This document shows positions 32,011-62,938 of a stretch of 64,000 nucleotides of DNA, piece after piece. Source of the stretch: Eledone cirrhosa (Eukaryota); the NCBI GenBank assembly GCA_964016885.1, contig OZ024742.1:11036001-11100000 (forward strand), read 5' to 3'. Within the stretch, counting starts at the first letter, position 1, and every line of letters starts with the position of its first letter. The position numbers were made by a program, and so were the translations under genes. The notes under the pieces were generated by a model, which saw only the letters and a program-made list of their open reading frames with translations, was not told the origin of the DNA and searched no databases.

Positions 32011-32806
32011 TTTTTTAGGTCTTACTACGGCTGATTTCTTCCAGAGAGAAAGAAAGAGATGGAAAAATGCAGTGAAGATTCATCCCCGGAGGAATAATAA
32101 AAAATATTTACACCGCACATTTCATTTTTTCAAAGGTAAAGCTGCCGATCCAAAATCAGTAATTCAACTCCCTGAAAACTTTCAAATATATGCTGTTCTA
32201 GCATGAATATTATGCTAAGGATAAGCTGTCCACAAAGTAAGATTTACTTGCATATCCCCGTTCATATAAACACATACATACATGCATACATAAGTATTAG
32301 AACAGGGGGAAATAACTCACCGAAAGGGATAGTTTTGGGGCCCCAGGGACCACATTTTTCAAGTTAGAGGTTTGAAACCCCGTGTATTTGCTTCCTTGGA
32401 ACTTTTTACATAGGTGTGTAAATTTTCATGTCAGTCCGACCACGTCTACTACCATTTAACCGTGCACATCTGAATTTCAATCACCACCCATTTCACAAAT
32501 ATATATTAGATAAATGTGGTTACACAACAGTTAGTTCACCATACCGAGAACAATTGTTTCACCTCAGCGGATCCTCAGCTCGTAATGGATATGGTTATAC
32601 TGAAGAGGAAGGACAACCGTACGAACGTGCATGCGCAGAAACCGGCCACTTCACACAGGCAATACTAAAATGCGCGCAAGAGGTGTAAGGGAGATAACTG
32701 CGAAAGTCCGAAAAGATTCTAGTTGATAAAAAAATTATGATGTTGTTGTAAATCAATCCGGAGCTTTGTAGTTATGCAAGAGGTGTTTCGAGACGCGTGG
32801 ACAACA

Positions 32807-34016
32807 ACGGAGTAGCCTGGGAAAAGAAGTCTACAACTTCAGACCTATTCGACGTCTCCATGGGATCGTTTGACAGTGCTGACCTATGCGGCTTGGTTGG
32901 CCTATTTATTTTAGACATATTACATGTTAGATTCCCGGACTTCCACACGGGAATATACCGCGACGATGGACTGACCTTATCGAACCATAAAAGTGCTCAC
33001 GACCTCGACCGGTTTAAAAAAGACTTAGCTTCTACCTTCAATGAGTTAGGACTTAGGATAACAGCGTAGATTTCTTAGACATTAATTTAGACCTTCGCAC
33101 ACACACCTACAGCCCCTTCCATAATCTAAACGAAAAACTCAATTACATTCACAAGGACTCATGCCACCCGCCCACTGTTTTTAGAAACTTTGTAAATAAT
33201 ATCAGTACTAGAATCTCAAACCTCTCCTATAATAAGGCTATCTTTGACAGGGTGTCACCCTACTATAACACAACGTTAGCTAATAGCGGCATCTCGCAAC
33301 ATATCACTTACTCTCCCACTATCAACAACAGCAATAAGAAAAGAAAGCGTAACAATAGACAAACTATCTGGTTCTCTCCTCCCTTCTCACTCAACGTTAA
33401 AACCAATGTAGGCAAAACATGTCTAGCCCTCTTAGATAGACACTTTCCCATAGGTCATAAATACCGCTCCATCTTTAACCGACACAAAGTAAAACTAGGA
33501 TACTCCTGCGCTAAGAACATGAAGGCCCACATCACCAGCAGCCCTAGGAGCAACACCTCACCAGGGTGCTCTTACCATAAGCCCGAAGCTTGACCCCTTC
33601 AACAGCAATCCAACACACCCGCTATAATTTATGAAGCTGTGGTCACTTCCAACCGACCAAATCAACCACAGGAGGTCAAATCCTATGTGGGTATGGAGGA
33701 GGGCCGATTTAAGGAACGTTTCCTGAACCACCAGTCGACCTTTAGGTACCCGGACAGACGTTTATCCACGAAACTCGCGAGCCACGTATGGCCCCTCAAG
33801 GACTCAAGTATAGACTACTCCATTCAATAGAAAGCCATCACTAAGTCCAAGCCATACGCAAGGGGAATTCCGTCGTGTGGACTATGTATTGATGAACGAA
33901 TAAATATTCTAAAGCGATTATGCAATAGTGATTGCCTAAACACGAGAAATGAATTCTTCACACGTTGTCCACACGTCCCGAAACACCTCTTGCATAACTA
34001 CAAAGCTCCGGATTGA
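32807..34016 (+). pseudogene. PLE reverse transcriptase + GIY-YIG endonuclease (disrupted)
   Basis: FDVSMGSFD, GIYRDDGL, DFLDINLDL, WFSPPFS, IIYEAVV..SYVG..FKERFLNH, CGLC..LNTRNE..CPH; frameshift near 33068, TGA at 33591, TAG at 33828. Confidence 0.92.
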
Positions 34017-34395: not shown

Positions 34396-34744
34396 GCAGA
34401 GGTTATATTTAATTTGTTGGGATTCAACAACCTTAAACATTTTTATAACTGATATAAAGCACTCAACAAGTTAGTGGAGTAAATATACAATATATTAATA
34501 AATGGAAACTATATTTATAAAACCATAAATATTTTATTATATATATTTCAAGGGCGACCAAGGTAAACTCTCCAGCGAATTTCAACCGTGGGGTTGTCTT
34601 TATTCCGGGTATATCAATATTTATTTATAAAACCAATCTGTATTTTATCTGATGAAAGCGCACCATAATTTACCTTGGTCGCCCTTGAAATATATATAAT
34701 AAAATAAATATGGTTTTATAAATATAGTTTCCATTTATTAATAT

Positions 34745-39258: not shown

Positions 39259-42200
39259 CTATCTAAGGCGGGTAAAATTCCCGAGATCCATGGACGAGTT
39301 CTCTCCAGCGGTCTCTGTCCCTCATTATCGCTGCCATATCCTGCATCTCCAACAGACCAGTGTCTGTCCTTAGGGCATCAACATATGTTAACCTTGGTCT
39401 TCCTCTTCTAGTGTGTCCATGTAGGGGCTCCCAAAGGAGCACTGAGTGCAATGTCAACTCTGGATGTCGGTGAGCATGTCCAGCCAACCTCAGTCTTCTC
39501 TGTGTCACTTTTGAGCTGACTTTTGGGATGCTCCCATACAGCTCTGAGTTTTTCATCCTCAGTGTATACTGATTAATGTTCAGAGCCATCCTCAGCATTC
39601 TCGTGTAGCACCCATCCACCATCTGAGTGAGTCTCTTGGTCAGTGTCCAAGTCTCAGACCCATACAGCAGCACAGACTCCACTACAGCAATGAAGAGGCG
39701 GATTTTCAGGTCTCTACGAAGGTCTGACTTCCACACCGATCTCAAGCTGTGACACGCCGCCCAGGCCTTGCTCTTCCTCTCAACCACATCATCTTCCGTA
39801 TTCCCAATCTTTGCTCCCAAATACAGGAAGTCCTCAACCAATTCCAGCGGCTTCCCGCCTACATTAGTGATCCCCTCTGGCTTCTCAACATTCTCTACCA
39901 GATATTTTGTTTTAGTCTCATTCATTCTCAGCCCCACACTCATCGACACAGTCTCAACCTCCCGCATCAAATCCCCTGCCTCCTTCACTGTATTTGTCAC
40001 CAAAACTATGTCGTCAGCAAACTCAGCATCCGATACCTTTTTCGCCCCAACTCTCCTGCTCTGAGCCGGTGCCACAGTAAAGCCAGAGTCCTGGTGTTTC
40101 TCCAGTGCAAGGCGCATACAATAGTCCACTACGATGATAAAAAGGTAGGGAGCCAATGTATCTCCCTGGAGCACTCCAGCCAGTATCTCAAAGAACTCTG
40201 TCATCCCATCAGGTGTAATGACTTGGGCTTTGGTGTTGGTGTAGAGCAGTGATATCAGGTCCACTATCCTCTTGGGGATTCCATAAGCCTGTAAGATCTT
40301 CATCAGGCAGTAACGGTCCACAGAATCAAAGGCCTTCCTAAAGTCAATGAAAACCATGACCGCAGGAAGGCACTTTGCTCTAGCTCCCTCTAATATCCTC
40401 CTCAGCATCAGGATGTGACTGGTGGTTGATCTACCCTCTCTGAAGCCGTTCTGGTTGTCCCTGAGCTTCTTCTCCATCTCAGGCTGGATCCTGTTAAGAA
40501 TCATCCTGTTGAGGGTCTTTGCCACAAGTGACGTCAGTGAGATCCCCCGGTAGTTGTTGGTGTTAGAGAGATCTCCCTTCTTTGGCACTGGGACGATGTT
40601 ACTGATCCTCCACTGATTCGGGGCAACTCCTTTCTCCAGTGCCCCGTTACAGAACCCCAGGATGATATCATCAAAATCACACCTCTTCATCACCTCTGAT
40701 GCCACTCCATCCTCTCCATGAGCCTTGCCCTCCTTGATCTTCTTCTTGGCTCTCCGAAGCTCCTCTCTGGTGAAGGGCTCTGTCTCAACATCCAGTTCCT
40801 CAAACAGCCGCCTGATCTCCCCAGTGCTCTGGGCTGTGGAGGGTGGCTCTCCTAGTAGGGTCCTAAAATGGTCTAGCCATTTCCTCTTCCTATCCACGGG
40901 CCCCGTTCCCTGGATCTGACTCGAACACCTTTTCTTCCTCCCTGTGATCTCGTTGATGATCATCCAGCTCTCCTTACATCCAGATCTGTCAACCGCTCTC
41001 TCCACACTTCTGATCTTCTCTATCAGTGCCTCCTCTCTGACCTCAGTGTAAGCGGTACAGAGCTCTTCCCTCATCACCTCCACAGTCTCCATCCTCTCCT
41101 CCGTAGGATCAGCATAGAATTGGTCCCTGGCAGCTTTCAGGTGTTCTCTGGCTGCACACACTTTTGGGTTTGCAGAGCTGACGTGCTTCCATTTGTTCTT
41201 TTTCCTCGGCACCAGGGTTTCACTTGCTTTCGCCACTGCATTGGTGAAGTGCCCGTACCCCCTCGTCACACTCTCCTCAGTCCATCCAATCTCTCTCTCC
41301 TCTGACTCTCCACACAGAGCACTAAACCTGTTTCTCACTTCCACTGTGAACCTCTCCTGTAGCTTATCATCTTCCCTGAAAGCTCCCCAGTCATAGATTG
41401 TTCTCCGGGGCTGAGCCTTGCTCTTTCTTAAGCTCACGCGGACCTCACTCATAACAAGCCGGTGGTCACTACCCAGTGTACTGAAATAGCTGTATGGTTC
41501 CGTGTTCAGAACACTATTCCGCCACTTTTTCCTCACCAGAATGAAATCAATCTGGGACTTGGACAGGTGCATATCTGAGATGTAGGTCCACATCTTCCCC
41601 AGATTCTTCCTAAACCTTAGGTTGGTCGCCATCAAGTTCGCCTCCAGCAGGGTGTCTCTCAGTAGTCTTCCATTTCGGTTGGTGTTGTTATGGAAGTACC
41701 AGCAAGGATCTTCACTGCCCTCCTTACTCAGATGTGCATTGAAGTCCCCCAAAACAAGCAGGATATTGTGTGCCTGAGTGGTGTTGACAGCTCTACACAC
41801 CTCCTCATGGAACTCCTCGGCATTCACATCACTGTCCCCCTCGGTTGGACTATAGGCTGAGATGACTGTCAGTCTTGGGTTTCCATTGAAGGTCACCCTC
41901 AACACTCGCGGGGAGATAGGCATTATTTCCCTCACCAACAGATTGGTTTTTGCACTGAACACAAAACCCACTCCTCCTACTGCAGCGTTTGTTGTGTTCT
42001 TCACTGCCGATGTAGTGATGAGCTGGCTCTTCCTCCCGATCATCACACTCCTCACGGGCTCATCGTGTAGAATCCTGTGTTCTTGGATCGCAAGTATCTG
42101 TATACCACTCTCCTCGAACAGATGTCCCAACTCCTCTCTCTTCTCCAGCGTTCGAATAGTCCTCACATTCAAAGTGCCCATTTTGATGGCTCTTCTGCAG

Positions 42201-42572
42201 GACAAAACTGCATTCTTTATATTTGTCTCAGAGACAGCTGATCCATCATCCACTGGCCCTCTCTGTGGCTCTAAGCCAGCAGAGTCATAACGACCAGGCT
42301 GATCCTTGACAGTGTAATTAGGGGCTCTAACCCTAGTGCTGTTAGATCGACTCTCCATATTTCTTTTCAATGGCTGACAATACCTTACCGGCGCCACTCG
42401 AGTAAGGTAGTTATTTAACCCATAACTGGAGCCCTAACAGGTAATACCACCCCGGGCCAGGGCAGACCTGGGAGTCATGACAACTAAGGGGTAACTCCAC
42501 ATTCCCCACATCTCCTGAACTCCCGAACTGGAGCCTTGCCACTGGATGTAGTTTAATGTCATACCCAGGACA
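39255..42572 (-). mobile_element. Full-length RTE-clade non-LTR retrotransposon inserted in (TA)n/(CA)n
   Basis: Single long ORF, ~200-bp 5' UTR, stop codon followed directly by a (TAGA)(TA)n tail. Confidence 0.92.
39263..42397 (-). CDS. APE endonuclease + reverse transcriptase polyprotein (1044 codons; first ATG at 42358)
   Basis: GTLNVRT, AIQEHR, LGDFNA, IDFIL, SDH (APE); PVPKKGD..NYRGISL, QNGFR, FIDFRKAFDSV, GVLQGDTLAPYLF, FADD, FLYLG, LLYGSETW, RLRLAGH (RTE-type RT and C-terminus); no internal stops. Confidence 0.96.
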   Translation of the reverse strand: MAPVRYCQPLKRNMESRSNSTRVRAPNYTVKDQPGRYDSAGLEPQRGPVDDGSAVSETNIKNAVLSCRRAIKMGTLNVRTIRTLEKREELGHLFEESGIQILAIQEHRILHDEPVRSVMIGRKSQLITTSAVKNTTNAAVGGVGFVFSAKTNLLVREIMPISPRVLRVTFNGNPRLTVISAYSPTEGDSDVNAEEFHEEVCRAVNTTQAHNILLVLGDFNAHLSKEGSEDPCWYFHNNTNRNGRLLRDTLLEANLMATNLRFRKNLGKMWTYISDMHLSKSQIDFILVRKKWRNSVLNTEPYSYFSTLGSDHRLVMSEVRVSLRKSKAQPRRTIYDWGAFREDDKLQERFTVEVRNRFSALCGESEEREIGWTEESVTRGYGHFTNAVAKASETLVPRKKNKWKHVSSANPKVCAAREHLKAARDQFYADPTEERMETVEVMREELCTAYTEVREEALIEKIRSVERAVDRSGCKESWMIINEITGRKKRCSSQIQGTGPVDRKRKWLDHFRTLLGEPPSTAQSTGEIRRLFEELDVETEPFTREELRRAKKKIKEGKAHGEDGVASEVMKRCDFDDIILGFCNGALEKGVAPNQWRISNIVPVPKKGDLSNTNNYRGISLTSLVAKTLNRMILNRIQPEMEKKLRDNQNGFREGRSTTSHILMLRRILEGARAKCLPAVMVFIDFRKAFDSVDRYCLMKILQAYGIPKRIVDLISLLYTNTKAQVITPDGMTEFFEILAGVLQGDTLAPYLFIIVVDYCMRLALEKHQDSGFTVAPAQSRRVGAKKVSDAEFADDIVLVTNTVKEAGDLMREVETVSMSVGLRMNETKTKYLVENVEKPEGITNVGGKPLELVEDFLYLGAKIGNTEDDVVERKSKAWAACHSLRSVWKSDLRRDLKIRLFIAVVESVLLYGSETWTLTKRLTQMVDGCYTRMLRMALNINQYTLRMKNSELYGSIPKVSSKVTQRRLRLAGHAHRHPELTLHSVLLWEPLHGHTRRGRPRLTYVDALRTDTGLLEMQDMAAIMRDRDRWRELVHGSREFYPP

Positions 42573-47255: not shown

Positions 47256-47889
47256 TATGAAACGAAAGGAGCTGTGTGGTTAGTAAAAACAAGGTTTAGG
47301 ATGGTGGTTAGAACGGAACAGGAGGAGAAAGGAAGAAAGGAGTTTCCATCGTCAGCTGTAAATGTTTCCCGAACCGATGTTTCGGCGCTGAATTACACGA
47401 CATCGGTGTAGTTCGGGGGCGCCCGAGGCCTTTTTATTAATCAAAAGGCCAGGTGGAAAAGGAGGGAGAAAGAGAGAAAAAAAGGGGAGAAAAAAGGAGA
47501 GAGAAAAGGAAAGAGAGGGAAAGGAAGAAGAACAGGGGGAAAAGGATGAGGAGAGAGGAAGAAAAGGGGAAAGGAAAAGGAGTAGGAGAACAAAAATATA
47601 TATATATATAGTGAGTTAGAAACTCTGAGTAGTCTCTTACAATTAAATAGCTCTAAGATAAAAGCTTTTCCGAGCCGTACAATATAATTCATCTCTCTTT
47701 ATTATATATATATAACAAAGGAATTGTGGTAATGAACCAGATGAACCATAACGCACCAGAGCACTCAATACTTAGGGTAGTAGAGTGGGAAATAGGAAAA
47801 AGATATGACCCCGACGGCAGAGCTCAAGCCGTTTCGACGGCTATTTCTGGACTAAATTAGAATTTTTAGCCTGGTGAATAAATAGCCGA

Positions 47890-48774
47890 ACATCCTGGAA
47901 ACATCACCAATAACCTGGTTAAAAACATCTCCCTCCGCATATCTCGTTTGTCTGCTAATGAGCAGATATTCGACGAACACGAGCCTCATTACAATCAGGC
48001 CCTCATGTGGAGTGGCTTCCGGGAGGAAATATCCTTTTATCCAGCTTCCCCTAGCGGATCCAGCAGGCGACACCGCCGCTCACGCAACGTAACGTTGTTC
48101 AATCCTCCCCATAATGCCGAGGCGGCAACACCTATCGGGAAAATCTTCTTTAGACTCCTCGAAAACCACTTCCCACTACAACACCGCTACCACAACATAA
48201 TCAACAAAAACATCATCAAACTCTCCCACAGCACCACACCTAACTTCGCACAAAACATCGTCTCCTCAAACAACAAAAAACTTAACCCCTATGGAAGAAA
48301 TAACCTAGACATCAGTGGAGAGCCGACCAGGAGATGTAACTGCCCTGATAGATCTACGTGAGCCTCAACAACAAATGCTGAGAACGTAACGTGATCTACC
48401 AGTGCAACGTGAGGACGGACACCTCCAACAAAGCTTATATAGGATTAACCGCGTGTGACTTCAAGACCCGGCTCTACCAACACCGACATACTTTCCGTAA
48501 CCCGGTCCGGCGACATGCCACTACACTTTCAGACCACATCTGGGACCTCCAAGATAATAATATAACCTACAATCTCACTTGGAGCTTACTTTCCAAAGTT
48601 AACTCTTACATGGGAGGACGCCGTCCGTGTAACTTATGCTCGGAGGAAACATTACAAATGTTGTTTTCGAAGGACCAACTCCTAAACAAGAAAGAGGAAC
48701 TGGTAACCGCATGCAAACACAGTTTGCGTAGGACTTACCTCGCCCTCAAACTCCATAACGACCCGGGTGGGTAG
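47890..48774 (+). pseudogene. PLE RT C-terminus + GIY-YIG endonuclease (disrupted)
   Basis: LFNPPH..IGKIFFRLL..HFP..HRYHNII, CNC, VIYQCNV..AYIGLT..FKTRLYQH, CNLCSEE..LLNKKEE..CKH. Confidence 0.92.
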
Positions 48775-49454: not shown

Positions 49455-49553
49455 ACCCCCTTGAAAAGTTTGGCTATTTATTCACCAGGCTAAAAATTCT
49501 AATTTAGTCCAGAAATAGCCGTCGAAACAGCTTGAGTTCTGCCGTCGGGGTCA
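49455..49553 (+). ncRNA. Hammerhead of family A with U3-A8 core and long stem II
   Basis: CCCC-TTGAAAA-GTTTGGCTATTT..AAATAGCCGTC-GAAA-CAGC..GCCG-TC-GGGG. Confidence 0.6.
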
Positions 49554-49566
49554 TATATTTTTCCTA

Positions 49567-49597
<31 letters not shown>

Positions 49598-49654
49598 CAC
49601 GAATGAAACAGTTCTAGTGCTGTAGAAGCTTTTCTATATATATATATATATATA

Positions 49655-49905
49655 TAGGAAAATGTATGACCCCGACGGCAGAGCTCAAGCCGTCTCGATA
49701 TATATATAACGAAGGAGTTGGCCATAACGCACCAGAGTACTCAATACTTAGGGTAGTAGAGTGGGTAATAGGAGAAAGTATGACCCAGACGGCAGAGCTC
49801 AAGCCGTTTCGACGGCTATTTCTGGGCTAAATTAAACTCTAATTTAGTCCAGAAATAGTCGTCGAAACGGCTTGAGCTCTGCCGTCGGGGTCATACTCTC
49901 TCCTA
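49655..49905 (-). mobile_element. Family A fold-back derivative(s)
   Basis: Tail plus a long hairpin centred near 49836. Confidence 0.85.
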
Positions 49906-51185: not shown

Positions 51186-51240
<55 letters not shown>

Positions 51241-51248
<8 letters not shown>

Positions 51249-52709
51249 CTGGCAGGAGGTCATATATTTTGTCGTTCCTGGTACCCCTAAAAATACATAG
51301 GTTGTCTATGATTCAAGGTTGTTCAATGGTATTAATTTGATACACCAGAACTTTAATATTAAGATAAGCAGAACAAGTAAAATTCAACCAATTTTTTAAA
51401 ATACATTAAAAAATATAATATAAATATTTACCTCTCCTAGTGGCCCGTACTGATCAGTTTCGCTTTGTAAAACCTCATAAATCCGATGGATTTCTGATGG
51501 AAAACCAAAGCTCATCAGAGAAGCATTTTCCTTTCCTAGGGCTAAACGTCCAGGAACGACAAAATATATGACCTCCTGTCAGCAAATATAGGTCTGAAAG
51601 GTCGTAAAAGTGACCCGTATGTAAACTGGACCGAAGTAAAAGCGGGAAAATCATAGACTTGTTGTCTACAATTACTACTAAAAAAAATAGCAGCTAAATA
51701 GAACAACAGATTTGTTCTCAACATAACGGAGTTTAATGATTGAAGTTAATATGTCCAAGTATACTAGGTACCCCTAGAAATACATAGGTTGTCTATGATT
51801 CAAGGTTGTTCAATGGTATTAATTTGATACACCAGAACTTTAATTTTAAGATAAGCGGAACAAGTAAAATTCAACCAATTTTTTAAAATACATTAAAAAA
51901 TATAATATAAATATTTACCTCTCCTAGTGGCCCTTACTGATCAGTTTCGCTTTGTAAAACCTCAAAAATCCGATGGATTTCTGATGGAAAACCAAAGCTC
52001 ATCAGAGAAGCATTTTCCTTTCCTAGGGCTGTTTAGCCCTAGGAAAGGAAAATGCTTCTCTGATGAGCTTTGGTTTTCCATCAGAAATCCATCGGATTTT
52101 TGAGGTTTTACAAAGCGAAACTGATCAGTAAGGGCCACTAGGAGAGGTAAATATTTATATTATATTTTTTAATGTATTTTAAAAAATTGGTTGAATTTTA
52201 CTTGTTCCGCTTATCTTAAAATTAAAGTTCTGGTGTATCAAATTAATACCATTGAACAACCTTGAATCATAGACAACCTATGTATTTCTAGGGGTACCTA
52301 GTATCCTTGGACATATTAACTTCAATCATTAAACTCCGTTATGTTGAGAACAAATCTGTTGTTCTATTTAGCTGCTATTTTTTTTAGTAGTAATTGTAGA
52401 CAACAAGTCTATGATTTTCCCGCTTTTACTTCGGTCCAGTTTACATACGGGTCACTTTTACGACCTTTCAGACCTATATTTGCTGACAGGAGGTCATATA
52501 TTTTGTCGTTCCTGGACGTTTAGCCCTAGGAAAGGAAAATGCTTCTCTGATGAGCTTTGGTTTTCCATCAGAAATCCATCGGATTTATGAGGTTTTACAA
52601 AGCGAAACTGATCAGTACGGGCCACTAGGAGAGGTAAATATTTATATTATATTTTTTAATGTATTTTAAAAAATTGGTTGAATTTTACTTGTTCCGCTTA
52701 TCTTAATAT
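51241..52709. mobile_element. Family G: palindromic array of a 487-bp HHR-containing repeat (retrozyme-like)
   Basis: 675-bp arms 51356-52030 / 52035-52709; direct repeat offset 487; identical ORF translations at 51542(-) and 52341(+). Confidence 0.88.
52055..52134 (+). ncRNA. Type I hammerhead (family G); further copies at 52542-52621 (+), ~51931-52010 (-), ~51444-51523 (-)
   Basis: TTCT-CTGATGA-GCTTTG[..TCAGAAATCC ATC GGATTTTTGA..]CAAAGC-GAAA-CTGATCAG-TA-AGGG. Confidence 0.78.
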
Positions 52710-53157
52710 ATATATACATATATATATATTATGTGTGTATGCTTTTGTCTGTGTGTGAATGTTTGTAAGCATATGCGTCTGTCTGTCTATATGTATGTAT
52801 ATATGTATGCGTATGTATGTGTGTGTGTGTGTCTACATGTATGTATATATGTATGTATGCGTATGTATGTTGTGTGTTTGTGTGTGTGGAATATTTCGTG
52901 CCGCCTTTCCTGGCGGAACAAATTTACAGTAACTGTTGATGAAGAAGCCTTATAACTCGTGTGTGTTTGTATGTGTGTAAGTATATGTGTTTGTATGTGT
53001 GTAAGTATATGTGTGTAAGTGTATGTGTATGTTTGTAAATGTATGTGTGTAAGTGTATGTGTGTAAGTGTATGTCTATGTACAGTAGATCCTCTCGAAGA
53101 AGTCGATAACTCGTATATTTTAATGAATAATACATGCTTGGTTTGTTGAGTTATTTG

Positions 53158-54077: not shown

Positions 54078-55395
54078 ACTAGCAGATTTACCCGGCGTTG
54101 CTCGGGGTTTGAAATTATGCTAAGAATATACAGCTAGGAAGTAAAAGAACATTATTTGTCCCCAACTTGTCAAAATAAGCAGTCTCTTTATAAGGACTGT
54201 TAATAAAGTTGGTTATCTCCCTTACATCACTTTTGCTACCGATAATTTTGATATCGATTTTTTATTGCTCAACGTGGGTCGATTGGAAATTATTTGTGAG
54301 GTGATCATCTTAGCGACCTGTGCAACGTGCACAGAAAATTTGGTCAAATTCGGTTGGTAATTGTAAAAGCCTTAGGTATCCAAAGTTGTCCACGGATATA
54401 TAAATCTATTGATACTGTATGTGATCCACAGGATGCGGTCAACTATCCAGTTGAATTTCTAAATTCTTTAAATCCTCCTGCTTTACCTCCTAATACATTG
54501 GTTCTGAAAGAGGGAACGCCAGTTATTTTGCTGAGAAATATCACTCCTCCAAAACTATGCAATGGTACACGCCTTGTGGTTAAAAAACTGTCTCCACTTA
54601 GTATTGACGCTACCATTCTATCCGGATGTGGAAAAGGCGAGGATGTGATAATAACAAAAATTAGCCTGACTACATCAGGCGTGGATACTCCCTTCTCCTT
54701 TCGCCGAACCGAATTTCCCCTTCTTGTTGCCTTTGTGATGTCCATAAACAAGTCGCAAGGTCAAACTCTGTCCGTCACTGGAATTCACTTGGATGAACCT
54801 TGCTTTTCGCACGGAAAATTCTACGTTGCCTGCTCACGAGTTGGCAGTCGAGATAATCTTTGCGTTTGTTTCGAAAAGAAAAACAAGAATATCGTCCATC
54901 CTGAAGTATTTAGTGTTAACAAAATAACTTATTACAGCTCTGCCTTGACTTCACCTTACTCATTACAAAACATACCAATGAATATGTCATGCAGGATATT
55001 TTGGATTATACGTTCAAAATTTAACCATACACAGCAAAGGATGCTCTCAAAGAATAGATTTTCTCTTATTCTACTCTCATTATTTTTTTGTTTGTATACA
55101 ACTCTGCTTTCATTACAACTTTATGTACTTTAGCAAAACTGCCGGTTTTTTTACAGATTTGCAACGTGTATTGTCTTTAATCATTTGTATAACTACATCC
55201 TGTTCAGTGTTTTCCTTCATTATCAGCATAGTTTTATGTGTACAAAGATTGCACTAAATATTCGTTTGCATTAATTATTGAAGACTTCTGCTTATTTTGA
55301 CAGGTTGGGGACAAATAATGTTCTTATTTTACTTCCTAGCTGTATATTCTTAGCATAATTTCAAACCCCTAGCAACGCCGGGTAAATCTGCTAGT
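54078..55395. mobile_element. Helitron-derived element with two inverted 3' termini
   Basis: ~105-bp inverted repeats 54078-54182 / 55288-55395, each ending in GCAACGCCGGG..CTAG|T. Confidence 0.82.
54399..54911 (+). pseudogene. C-terminal part of a Helitron PIF1-family helicase (within ORF 54327..55133)
   Basis: [65 protein letters not shown]. Confidence 0.93.
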
Positions 55396-62118: not shown

Positions 62119-62745
62119 TTATGTAATATTCAGCTTGTAGTGGGAAAAAAGGGTTTTAGTTCGGTGACGGCAGAATAATGTTCGTTCAATTCTGTTATTA
62201 AGCAATTTCTTCTTGTGTGTGATTATGTAATAAATCTCAAGATTACATAATTTGCAAACATTTTGGCTCCTGGAAAAGCTTTGGGTTTTAGCTAATTTCT
62301 CCCATTTTAAGGTAAACTTTTGATCGCTCTCCCTGAGCGTCCAAGCTTTTTTTGCTAAAGTTGTTACATTTCTTTGGCTCTGGTGTTTTATTGAGTAAGA
62401 ATGCCTATACAATCGAGATTTAAACGATGTTGCCGTTGATCCCACGTAATACCACTCGTTGCCTCCGGATTCAATGGTACACTTATAGATGATATTTTTT
62501 TCAAGGCAGTTATTGCCGAGGGGCAATTGTCAGGATAGGTGCAGTTACAGTTGTGGACGTTGGTTTTGTAGTTAGGTTCACTCTGGAGTAGTATTGCGGA
62601 CGAACTTAGGTGTGGTTTATTTATGTTCTGTAGTGTATTGTCTACTGTTTTTTTTGTGCTCTTTGTACTTAAGTTTTTAGTGTTTTCGTTTAACCTTCTA
62701 GTATTGATCTTTTTTATGTGTTGTTCAAGGTTTAACGCTGTAGAG
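62119..62745 (-). pseudogene. PLE linker + GIY-YIG endonuclease (1-nt frameshift near 62521)
   Basis: YSTALNL..HI, CNC....CP/LGNNCL..NIIYKC..YYVGSTATSFKSRLYRH, CKLCNLE..LLNNR.E..CRH. Confidence 0.92.
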
Positions 62746-62938
62746 TACAAACAAACCGAACATTATAATATATGTTCGGTAAACACATACGTACACACAT
62801 ATATGTGTGCATCTATGTATGTGTATACATACTACTGTACGTCTGTATACATATATGTATGTACGTATAGATACTTATATTTAAGTATCAGCCGTACTAA
62901 GAGTGAGAAATGAAATTTCAATTTCATTTTTTCCATTT

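What the first reader, a model, noticed from the sequence alone, without database searches (positions are those of the whole stretch)
51241..52709. 1.35-kb palindrome of a 487-bp hammerhead repeat: retrozyme/circRNA-like locus on both strands
Seen: near-identical 675-bp arms around GTTT (52031-52034). Each arm holds two HHRs 487 bp apart, with palindromic stem III ACTGATCAGT and an extended stem II. A further 41-bp inversion caps the left end; there is no coding capacity; (TA)n on both sides. Established: non-LTR retrozymes are tandem type I HHR repeats whose transcripts self-cleave to monomers that circularise. Inference: either strand could release a 487-nt monomer, and read-through would give long dsRNA. 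Caveat: stem I is weak (G-U rich), and the outer copies have C instead of A after the cleavage site.
Basis: partly seen in the sequence, partly recalled or inferred. Interest (0 to 1): 0.8.

Follow-up and report, generated by a model that had tools for sequence, protein, structure and literature searches.

The report
Mirror-image hammerhead retrozyme insertion
This 1.35-kb palindrome is one aged copy of a non-coding, hammerhead-ribozyme-bearing repeat present in hundreds of places in this animal genome, about a quarter of whose insertions carry a head-to-head mirror arm of the kind Penelope-like retrotransposons leave; it is likely a damaged copy rather than an active circular-RNA source, and its one oddity is that its two arms were likely recopied onto each other long after it landed.

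Summary
The palindrome is in the assembly as described: 675-bp arms, 2 mismatches, GTTT loop, four type I hammerheads, a 41-bp cap and (TA)n flanks. No reads spanning its centre were found. It is one insertion of a dispersed non-LTR retrozyme family (485-487-bp unit, 627 exact hammerhead-core matches, arrays of 15 or more units). The mirror is family-typical: 28 of 100 sampled insertions have a head-to-head arm. Of 37 two-orientation insertions, 29 end one arm at fixed site A and the other about 105 nt further on at site B; none is A+A or B+B. A 65%-identical sister family gives 11 of 11. This is the known Penelope-like 'inverted copy plus tail' signature with a longer tail; no autonomous partner was found. 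What is special here: units within an arm differ by 2.0%, the arms in register by 0.3%, and they share mutations found nowhere else in the genome, so the arms were likely recopied after the insertion aged. The outer hammerheads carry a private mismatch beside the cut, and read-through RNA would hide the ribozymes in a hairpin, so monomer release from this copy is doubtful. Cleavage and circles are untested. New member of a known kind; interest 0.4.

The parts
51187..51245 (.). Left (TA)n tract, the target microsatellite; overlaps the cap by a TATAT microhomology
51241..51281 (+). 41-bp cap = unit positions u445-485 in sense orientation; colinear with the right arm except for the 2 missing bases u486-487
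   Evidence: (D16)
51280..52030 (-). Left arm, 751 nt: inner unit u5-487 then outer unit u1-268; ends at u268, short of the family's site B (u289-304)
51280..51355 (-). Unpaired 76-nt extension of the left arm (u193-268), with one private change (51290)
51444..51522 (-). Outer left type I hammerhead; cut predicted between 51448 and 51447; first stem I pair lost (C at 51447)
51931..52009 (-). Inner left type I hammerhead; cut predicted between 51935 and 51934
52031..52034 (+). GTTT loop at the palindrome centre = u1-4 of the right arm
52031..52709 (+). Right arm, 679 nt: inner unit u1-487 plus outer unit u1-192, ending at the family's main 3' end (site A, ...TCTTAATAT) in (TA)n
52056..52134 (+). 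Inner right type I hammerhead; cut predicted after 52130
52131..52617 (+). 487-nt cut-to-cut monomer (34% GC; circular fold -120.8 kcal/mol, z -5.3 against 40 shuffles)
52223..52326 (+). Interval between site A (u192) and site B (about u296), the family's 'tail'; holds the hairpin GTTCTG...CATTGAAC (52227-52257) shared with sister families
52543..52621 (+). Outer right type I hammerhead; cut predicted after 52617; first stem I pair lost (C at 52618)
52710..52730 (.). Right (TA)n tract

Best explanation
The locus is one insertion of a dispersed, non-coding hammerhead repeat family (a non-LTR retrozyme) sitting in (TA)n, likely copied in by a Penelope-like reverse transcriptase, and its two arms were likely recopied onto each other long after insertion. 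Shown: a tandem 485-487-bp unit with a conserved type I hammerhead; two fixed 3' ends (A at u189-192, B at u289-304); head-to-head second arms in 28 of 100 insertions, nearly always A on one side and B on the other; in this locus, mutations unique in the genome that sit in mirror position in both arms. Inferred: a Penelope-like RT/GIY-YIG protein nicks both strands of (TA)n and starts one cDNA at A and the other at B on multimeric or circular RNA; the two cDNAs are joined head to head (twin priming). Here the junction is nearly symmetric (4-nt loop), the copy aged to about 2% unit-to-unit divergence, and hairpin-driven template switching or arm-to-arm conversion then reset the arms to 0.3%. 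That also spread the damaging C beside the outer cut site to both arms. The locus is therefore likely a poor source of monomers or circles; if read through it would give a 675-bp dsRNA hairpin.
For: 627 exact core matches, control 0; 349 exact site-A junctions; arrays of 15 or more units. 28 of 100 site-A insertions have an inverted arm; all 37 two-orientation insertions among 137 have a head-to-head junction; 29 A+B, 7 A+other (the window among them), 1 B+other, 0 A+A, 0 B+B. Sister family with a 467-bp unit: 11 of 11 clean two-arm loci among 27 are A+B at homologous sites. B arms tend to stop near site A: 10 of 30 are 81 nt or shorter, and 9 of 20 longer ones end in u170-240 (p 0.001, interval chosen after seeing the data; A arms 4 of 30). 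Window: same-arm units differ at 8 of 392 positions; arms differ at 2 of 594 in register and 5 of 236 and 3 of 156 out of register, while older two-arm loci L005, L009, L012, L052, L089, L144 differ by 2.9-6.3% in every register. u101C and u70T each occur exactly twice in the genome, once per arm here. Literature: inverted 5'-truncated copies and a one-sided tail are typical of Penelope-like insertions (PMC8557442; PMC3846280); a purified Penelope-like protein cuts and extends both strands and starts internally at two sites (PMC11167929).
Against: No autonomous element sharing the unit was found: no RT or GIY-YIG frame is attached to the hammerhead or the A-B element in any held locus. The window itself breaks the A+B rule (left arm ends at u268 under a cap). 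In vitro the two target strands showed no difference in start site, whereas a strict one-each rule is seen here. The age contrast rests on few changes (4 of 233 against 2 of 675, Fisher p 0.04). No other near-symmetric long locus was sampled (junction offsets), so the link between a short loop and recopying rests on one case. No read bridges the centre.
Confidence: 0.62

Rival explanations
1. The left arm is a later fold-back duplication dropped into an old single-arm insertion (cap + right arm) by replication or repair template switching, not a second arm made at insertion.
For: Cap u445-485 runs on into the right arm's u1 with only 2 bases missing, as an ordinary 5'-truncated copy would; the left arm does not end at site B; in-register sharing of private mutations; 2-nt GG microhomology at the cap junction.
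Against: The left arm runs 76 nt beyond the right arm's end, so an extra switch between tandem units is needed; that extension has its own private change; head-to-head arms are common in the family anyway.
Confidence: 0.2
2. Young insertion: the RT copied a linear transcript of an old, heterogeneous array and folded back on its own cDNA, so both arms inherited the unit-specific variants at once.
For: Palindromes at inverted junctions of Penelope elements have been read as self-priming (PMC3846280); the 4-nt loop fits a fold-back.
Against: No source with u70T or u101C exists in this assembly; sister insertions of the same subfamily all show 1.2-3.9% unit-to-unit decay in place; a fold-back cannot run past its own priming site, yet the left arm does.
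Confidence: 0.08
3. Assembly or polishing artefact: the mirror, or the near-identity of the arms, was made by chimeric reads or by polishing that mixes the arms.
For: No contig or read bridges the centre in the runs laid; the assembly method is unknown to me.
Against: The mirror stops at the element's family-typical 3' end and the flanks are not mirrored; the arms differ at 2 places and in length; 36 other head-to-head insertions lie in the same assembly and the older ones are not homogenised.
Confidence: 0.07
4. One reading: a working locus that releases a 487-nt monomer from either strand and makes circles.
For: All four catalytic cores are intact; the monomer folds well; mussel retrozymes with slow ribozymes still give abundant circles (PMC7229834).
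Against: The outer cut sites have lost the first stem I pair through a private mutation; the active fold lies 8-9 kcal/mol above the predicted minimum; read-through RNA forms a -1187 kcal/mol hairpin; only 1 of 9 frog dimers cleaved in vitro (bioRxiv 2026.07.22.740005).
Confidence: 0.1

Closest known systems
Metazoan non-LTR retrozymes (PMC7229834; bioRxiv 10.64898/2026.07.22.740005)
   Same: Non-coding tandem repeats, one type I hammerhead per unit, GC under 45%, dimers to long multimers, dispersed, in a genome that holds Penelope-like elements.
   Different: Unit 485-487 nt, above the 170-400 nt of the tested circles but inside the 51-972 bp range of the 2026 survey; stem II is long (50 nt); fixed 3' ends and inverted arms are mapped here; cleavage and circles untested; homology to a Penelope pLTR not found.
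Penelope-like element insertions with an inverted 5'-truncated copy and a one-sided tail (PMC3846280, PMC8557442)
   Same: Head-to-head inverted copy, partial tandems, 5' truncation, (TA)n preference, extension on one arm only, palindrome at the inverted junction.
   Different: No ORF; the extension is about 105 nt rather than 30-40 nt; the one-each rule is counted here (29 of 37, 0 A+A or B+B; 11 of 11 in a sister family).
Poseidon element PAc in vitro (PMC11167929)
   Same: Internal start of reverse transcription at two sites downstream of the hammerhead; both target strands cut and extended; AT-rich targets.
   Different: There both strands used the same start sites and priming needed no homology; here the arms split between A and B, and site A has a 4-6-nt match to (TA)n.
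Arm homogenisation in palindromes (template switching between inverted repeats, PMC8604942; arm-to-arm conversion, PMC3723533; listings and abstract starts only)
   Same: Arms more alike than their age allows, private mutations mirrored.
   Different: A single 1.35-kb mobile-element insertion in an invertebrate-type genome; inferred from one assembly, no population data.

Membership tests
non-LTR retrozyme | Tandem repeat with a type I hammerhead in each unit | tested here: met
   Four cores in the window 487 nt apart; arrays of 15 or more units elsewhere; core columns 98-100% invariant. Rfam found no hammerhead.
non-LTR retrozyme | No coding capacity, no LTR, low GC | tested here: met
   Longest ATG frame 60 aa; 34% GC; ends lie at fixed internal sites in (TA)n.
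non-LTR retrozyme | Dispersed, multi-copy, retroposed | tested here: met
   627 core matches and 349 identical 3' junctions; variable 5' truncation; both flanks TA-rich in 62 of 100.
non-LTR retrozyme | At least two consecutive intact hammerheads (the 'active' criterion of the 2026 preprint) at this locus | tested here: inconclusive
   Cores are intact but the outer copies have lost the first stem I pair; met by other arrays of the family.
non-LTR retrozyme | Self-cleavage and accumulation of linear and circular monomer RNA | not testable with these tools
No RNA run was listed.
Penelope-like insertion signature | Inverted 5'-truncated copy, head to head | tested here: met
   37 of 37 two-orientation insertions have a head-to-head junction.
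Penelope-like insertion signature | 30-40-bp tail on one end only | tested here: inconclusive
   A one-sided extension is present but about 105 nt long; the window's own left arm holds only 76 nt of it.
Penelope-like insertion signature | Sequence shared with the pLTR of an autonomous element | tested here: inconclusive
   None found in the held loci; the genome was not searched with a Penelope-like protein.
Autonomous Penelope-like element | ORF with RT and GIY-YIG endonuclease | tested here: not met
   No such frame in or attached to the element.

The most novel reading that the evidence does not exclude
This genome's retrozyme superfamily (thousands of units) records the Penelope-like insertion reaction in vivo: one protein dimer on one RNA primes the two target strands from two different fixed sites about 105 nt apart, with the downstream cDNA stopping where the upstream one starts. 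When the junction happens to be symmetric, as here, the insertion becomes a self-correcting palindrome whose arms are recopied over time and which would yield long dsRNA able to silence the whole family.
Probability: 0.35. Interest if true: 0.62.

Novelty: new member of a known kind. Interest (0 to 1): 0.4.

Why it matters
The locus itself is a decayed copy. The family is more useful: how Penelope-like elements make their inverted ends and tails is still open (PMC8557442), and hundreds of short, young, ORF-free insertions give a countable record of it. The strict pairing of end A with end B, kept across families only 65% alike, is a prediction that the existing in vitro system can test directly. 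It would also add a large retrozyme superfamily in a genome type for which my searches listed no retrozyme paper. The mirrored private mutations are a small, clean case of arm-to-arm recopying in a mobile-element palindrome.

Tried and rejected
Rfam: no hammerhead family among 58 matches; the miRNA hits are the hairpin and the TA tracts. Read support: no RNA holder listed; contigs of X1, X2, X3, X5 and RAD reads of X8 hold the family but none bridges 52031, and X9 laid no reads on the centre; neither for nor against. Autonomous partner: ORF scan of held loci, low-stringency blastn, 30 loci of the shared hairpin, an nhmmer profile of the A-B element over all held loci and the 3' regions of 20 GIY-YIG motif groups gave no linked element; Neptune-like neighbours end in (TA)n in the same style but have other terminal sequences. 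Pfam named none of the five Penelope-like frames of the window. Rejected: that the right end is a random truncation (it is the family's main 3' end); that TTAATAT at 52707 is target-derived (it is the family's own internal letter); that the left arm was copied from a circle of this locus (it carries the outer-unit letters u101C and u190T); that within-array identity proves rolling-circle copying (young arrays differ by 0.1-0.4% inside but 0-1% from other loci too). Rows not counted: L198, L199, L210 (duplicates) and the short internal self-hits of L205 and L215; homopolymer and TA tracts u118-149 and u345-361 were masked. The 100 and 37 include segmental duplicates (L133-135; two in L131) and one 34-nt overlapping hit (L150). 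The supplement of PMC7229834 could not be read and may list cephalopod repeats; supplements of the bioRxiv paper were not seen.

Full report
Observation. The structure is in the assembly as described. Arms 51356-52030 and 52035-52709 are 675 nt, 4 nt apart, with two mismatches. Four type I hammerhead cores lie at +52060, +52547, -52005 and -51518. Numbering the 487-bp unit from 52031 (u1), the cut is predicted after u100. The locus reads (TA)n, sense cap u445-485, antisense arm u268 back to u5 (751 nt), sense arm u1 to u192 of the next unit (679 nt), (TA)n. The longest ATG frame is 60 aa and the flanks are not mirrored. Rfam lists no hammerhead among 58 matches, so the ribozyme call rests on motif and pairing: core columns are 98-100% invariant over about 250 sampled units, and sister families keep stems I and III paired with different letters (GCUGU/ACAGC, ACUCC/GGAGU; stem III ACCGUCGGU, ACUAAUUAGU). 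The genome is 3.0 Gb; its TA- and TACA-rich repeat make-up looks octopus-like to me, which is recalled and untested.

The family. The right arm has 97 scored matches from 2,485 candidates. The hammerhead core occurs 627 times exactly, control 0. Copies are dispersed, 5'-truncated, and include arrays of 15 or more units. I mapped 137 insertions. Their 3' ends fall at two fixed places: site A (u189-192, 349 exact junctions with TA) and site B (u289-304). In a sample picked by the hammerhead, 47 single-arm insertions split 38 A, 6 B, 3 other, and 16 of 63 have more than one arm. In the first 100 site-A matches, 28 carry an inverted arm and 62 have TA-rich flanks on both sides. So the mirror is a family habit, not a property of this locus.

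The A+B rule. All 37 two-orientation insertions have a head-to-head junction; 29 end at A on one side and B on the other, 7 are A+other (the window among them), 1 is B+other, and none is A+A or B+B. A sister family with a 467-bp unit, 64-69% identical, has the homologous two ends, and 11 of 11 clean two-arm loci among 27 are A+B. A hairpin just after site A is shared by further families with 520-570-bp units: 9,449 matches, control 11. B arms tend to stop near site A: 10 of 30 are 81 nt or shorter and 9 of 20 longer ones end in u170-240 (p 0.001, interval chosen after seeing the data), against 4 of 30 A arms. That fits templates whose 5' end was made by the ribozyme, but an internal TA tract at u118-130 and a stall after one turn of a circle fit too. 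Linear against circular template is not settled.

What is special here. Units within one arm differ at 8 of 392 positions, like other old members of the subfamily (1.2-3.9%). The arms differ at only 2 of 594 unmasked positions in register, but at 5 of 236 and 3 of 156 out of register; six older two-arm loci differ by 2.9-6.3% in every register. Inner units of both arms share u70T, u190A and u456A; outer units share u101C. u101C and u70T each occur exactly twice in the genome, once per arm of this locus. Independent mutation cannot do this, and no source carrying them is in the assembly. The arms were therefore most likely copied onto each other after the insertion aged. This is also the only long locus sampled with a near-symmetric centre (offset 4; the long loci next in line are 13 or more). 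The numbers are small (Fisher p 0.04) and no read bridges the centre.

Mechanism. Inferred: a Penelope-like RT with GIY-YIG endonuclease nicks both strands of (TA)n and primes at A on one strand and B on the other; the cDNAs meet and are joined head to head. Basis: inverted 5'-truncated copies, one-sided tails and (TA)n bias are typical of these elements (PMC8557442, passages; PMC3846280, passages), and a purified Poseidon protein cuts and extends both strands and starts internally at two sites without needing ribozyme cleavage (PMC11167929, parts 1-2 of 4). Against: no autonomous partner was found, the in vitro strands shared their start sites, and the window's left arm ends at u268 under a cap. 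Later recopying is inferred from the variant pattern; arm homogenisation by template switching or conversion is known from other systems (PMC8604942, PMC3723533; listings and abstract starts only). Rivals are a late fold-back duplication into a single-arm copy (0.2), a young fold-back insertion from a lost source (0.08) and an artefact (0.07).

Function of this copy. A monomer needs both the inner and the outer cut. The outer copies have lost the first stem I pair; 269 of 271 sampled units have A there. The active fold is 8.0 (inner) and 8.9 (outer) kcal/mol above the predicted minimum, stem III can pair between molecules (-13.6 kcal/mol), and read-through RNA would form a -1187 kcal/mol hairpin. 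The circular monomer folds well (z -5.3 against 40 shuffles), so circles from intact arrays are plausible, as in mussel (PMC7229834, passages and section 14). No RNA run was available.

Comparison and novelty. It meets the sequence-level definition of a non-LTR retrozyme (PMC7229834; bioRxiv 10.64898/2026.07.22.740005, parts 1-3 of 5, which argues that these are non-autonomous Penelope-like derivatives). It works like a Penelope-like insertion; membership of a named Penelope family is not shown. Searches for retrozymes or hammerheads with octopus or cephalopod listed no such description; a squid genome paper counts 235 hammerhead loci without analysis (PMC6962438, passages); the supplement of PMC7229834 could not be read. 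Earlier notes of this scan on other genomes describe similar mirror-arm Penelope-type insertions; they are unchecked and were not used as support. Verdict: new member of a known kind. The 105-nt tail, the strict A+B pairing and the recopied arms are worthwhile details. Interest 0.4.

Noticed in passing
L023:2391-2980 and L187-L216: Sister retrozyme family, 467-bp unit, 64-69% identical, with a 5-bp Watson-Crick stem I and the same two ends; 80 scored matches.
   Followed up: partly
L089:5450-8001, L217-L246: Larger group of hammerhead repeats with 520-570-bp units sharing the hairpin GTTCTG...CATTGAACCAC, 9,449 matches genome-wide; many end about 105-110 nt after the hairpin start.
   Followed up: partly
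window +34649, +45492, -45785, -43725, -61215: Other type I hammerhead-like motifs in the window; those at 34649 and 45492 have an 8-bp stem I and a self-complementary AT stem III.
   Followed up: no
window 32752-33593 (+), 47882-48774 (+), 62119-62762 (-): Broken frames that look like Penelope-like RT and GIY-YIG remnants by eye (YRDDG, YIG motifs; recalled); Pfam named none of the five frames tested.
   Followed up: partly
window 39263-42433 (-): Open 1056-aa frame with AP endonuclease and RT domains, a LINE-type element that looks intact.
   Followed up: partly
window 1-24503: 24.5-kb array of a 15-bp unit, about 1657 copies, with strong strand skew.
   Followed up: no
window 49494-49895: A cluster of about 60-bp repeats in direct and inverted arrangement around (TA)n, just downstream of a GIY-YIG-like remnant; possibly another small Penelope-type end.
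   Followed up: no
window 54300-55133 (+): Frame with a Pif1 helicase 2B domain, likely a Helitron remnant.
   Followed up: no
L142:380-2616, L061, L178, L010, L147, L072: Neptune-like elements with RT and GIY-YIG frames lie near several retrozyme copies and also end in ...AAT followed by (TA)n; two related families end about 60 nt apart. Candidate drivers, but no sequence shared with the unit.
   Followed up: partly
window 52142-52152 (+): GAG/GTAAAT just after the hammerhead resembles a splice donor; most family copies have A at u112, and splicing was not tested.
   Followed up: no
L133, L134, L135; L131: The same insertions recur with their flanks about 100 kb apart (three times) and 2.8 kb apart (twice): segmental duplication of host DNA.
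   Followed up: no
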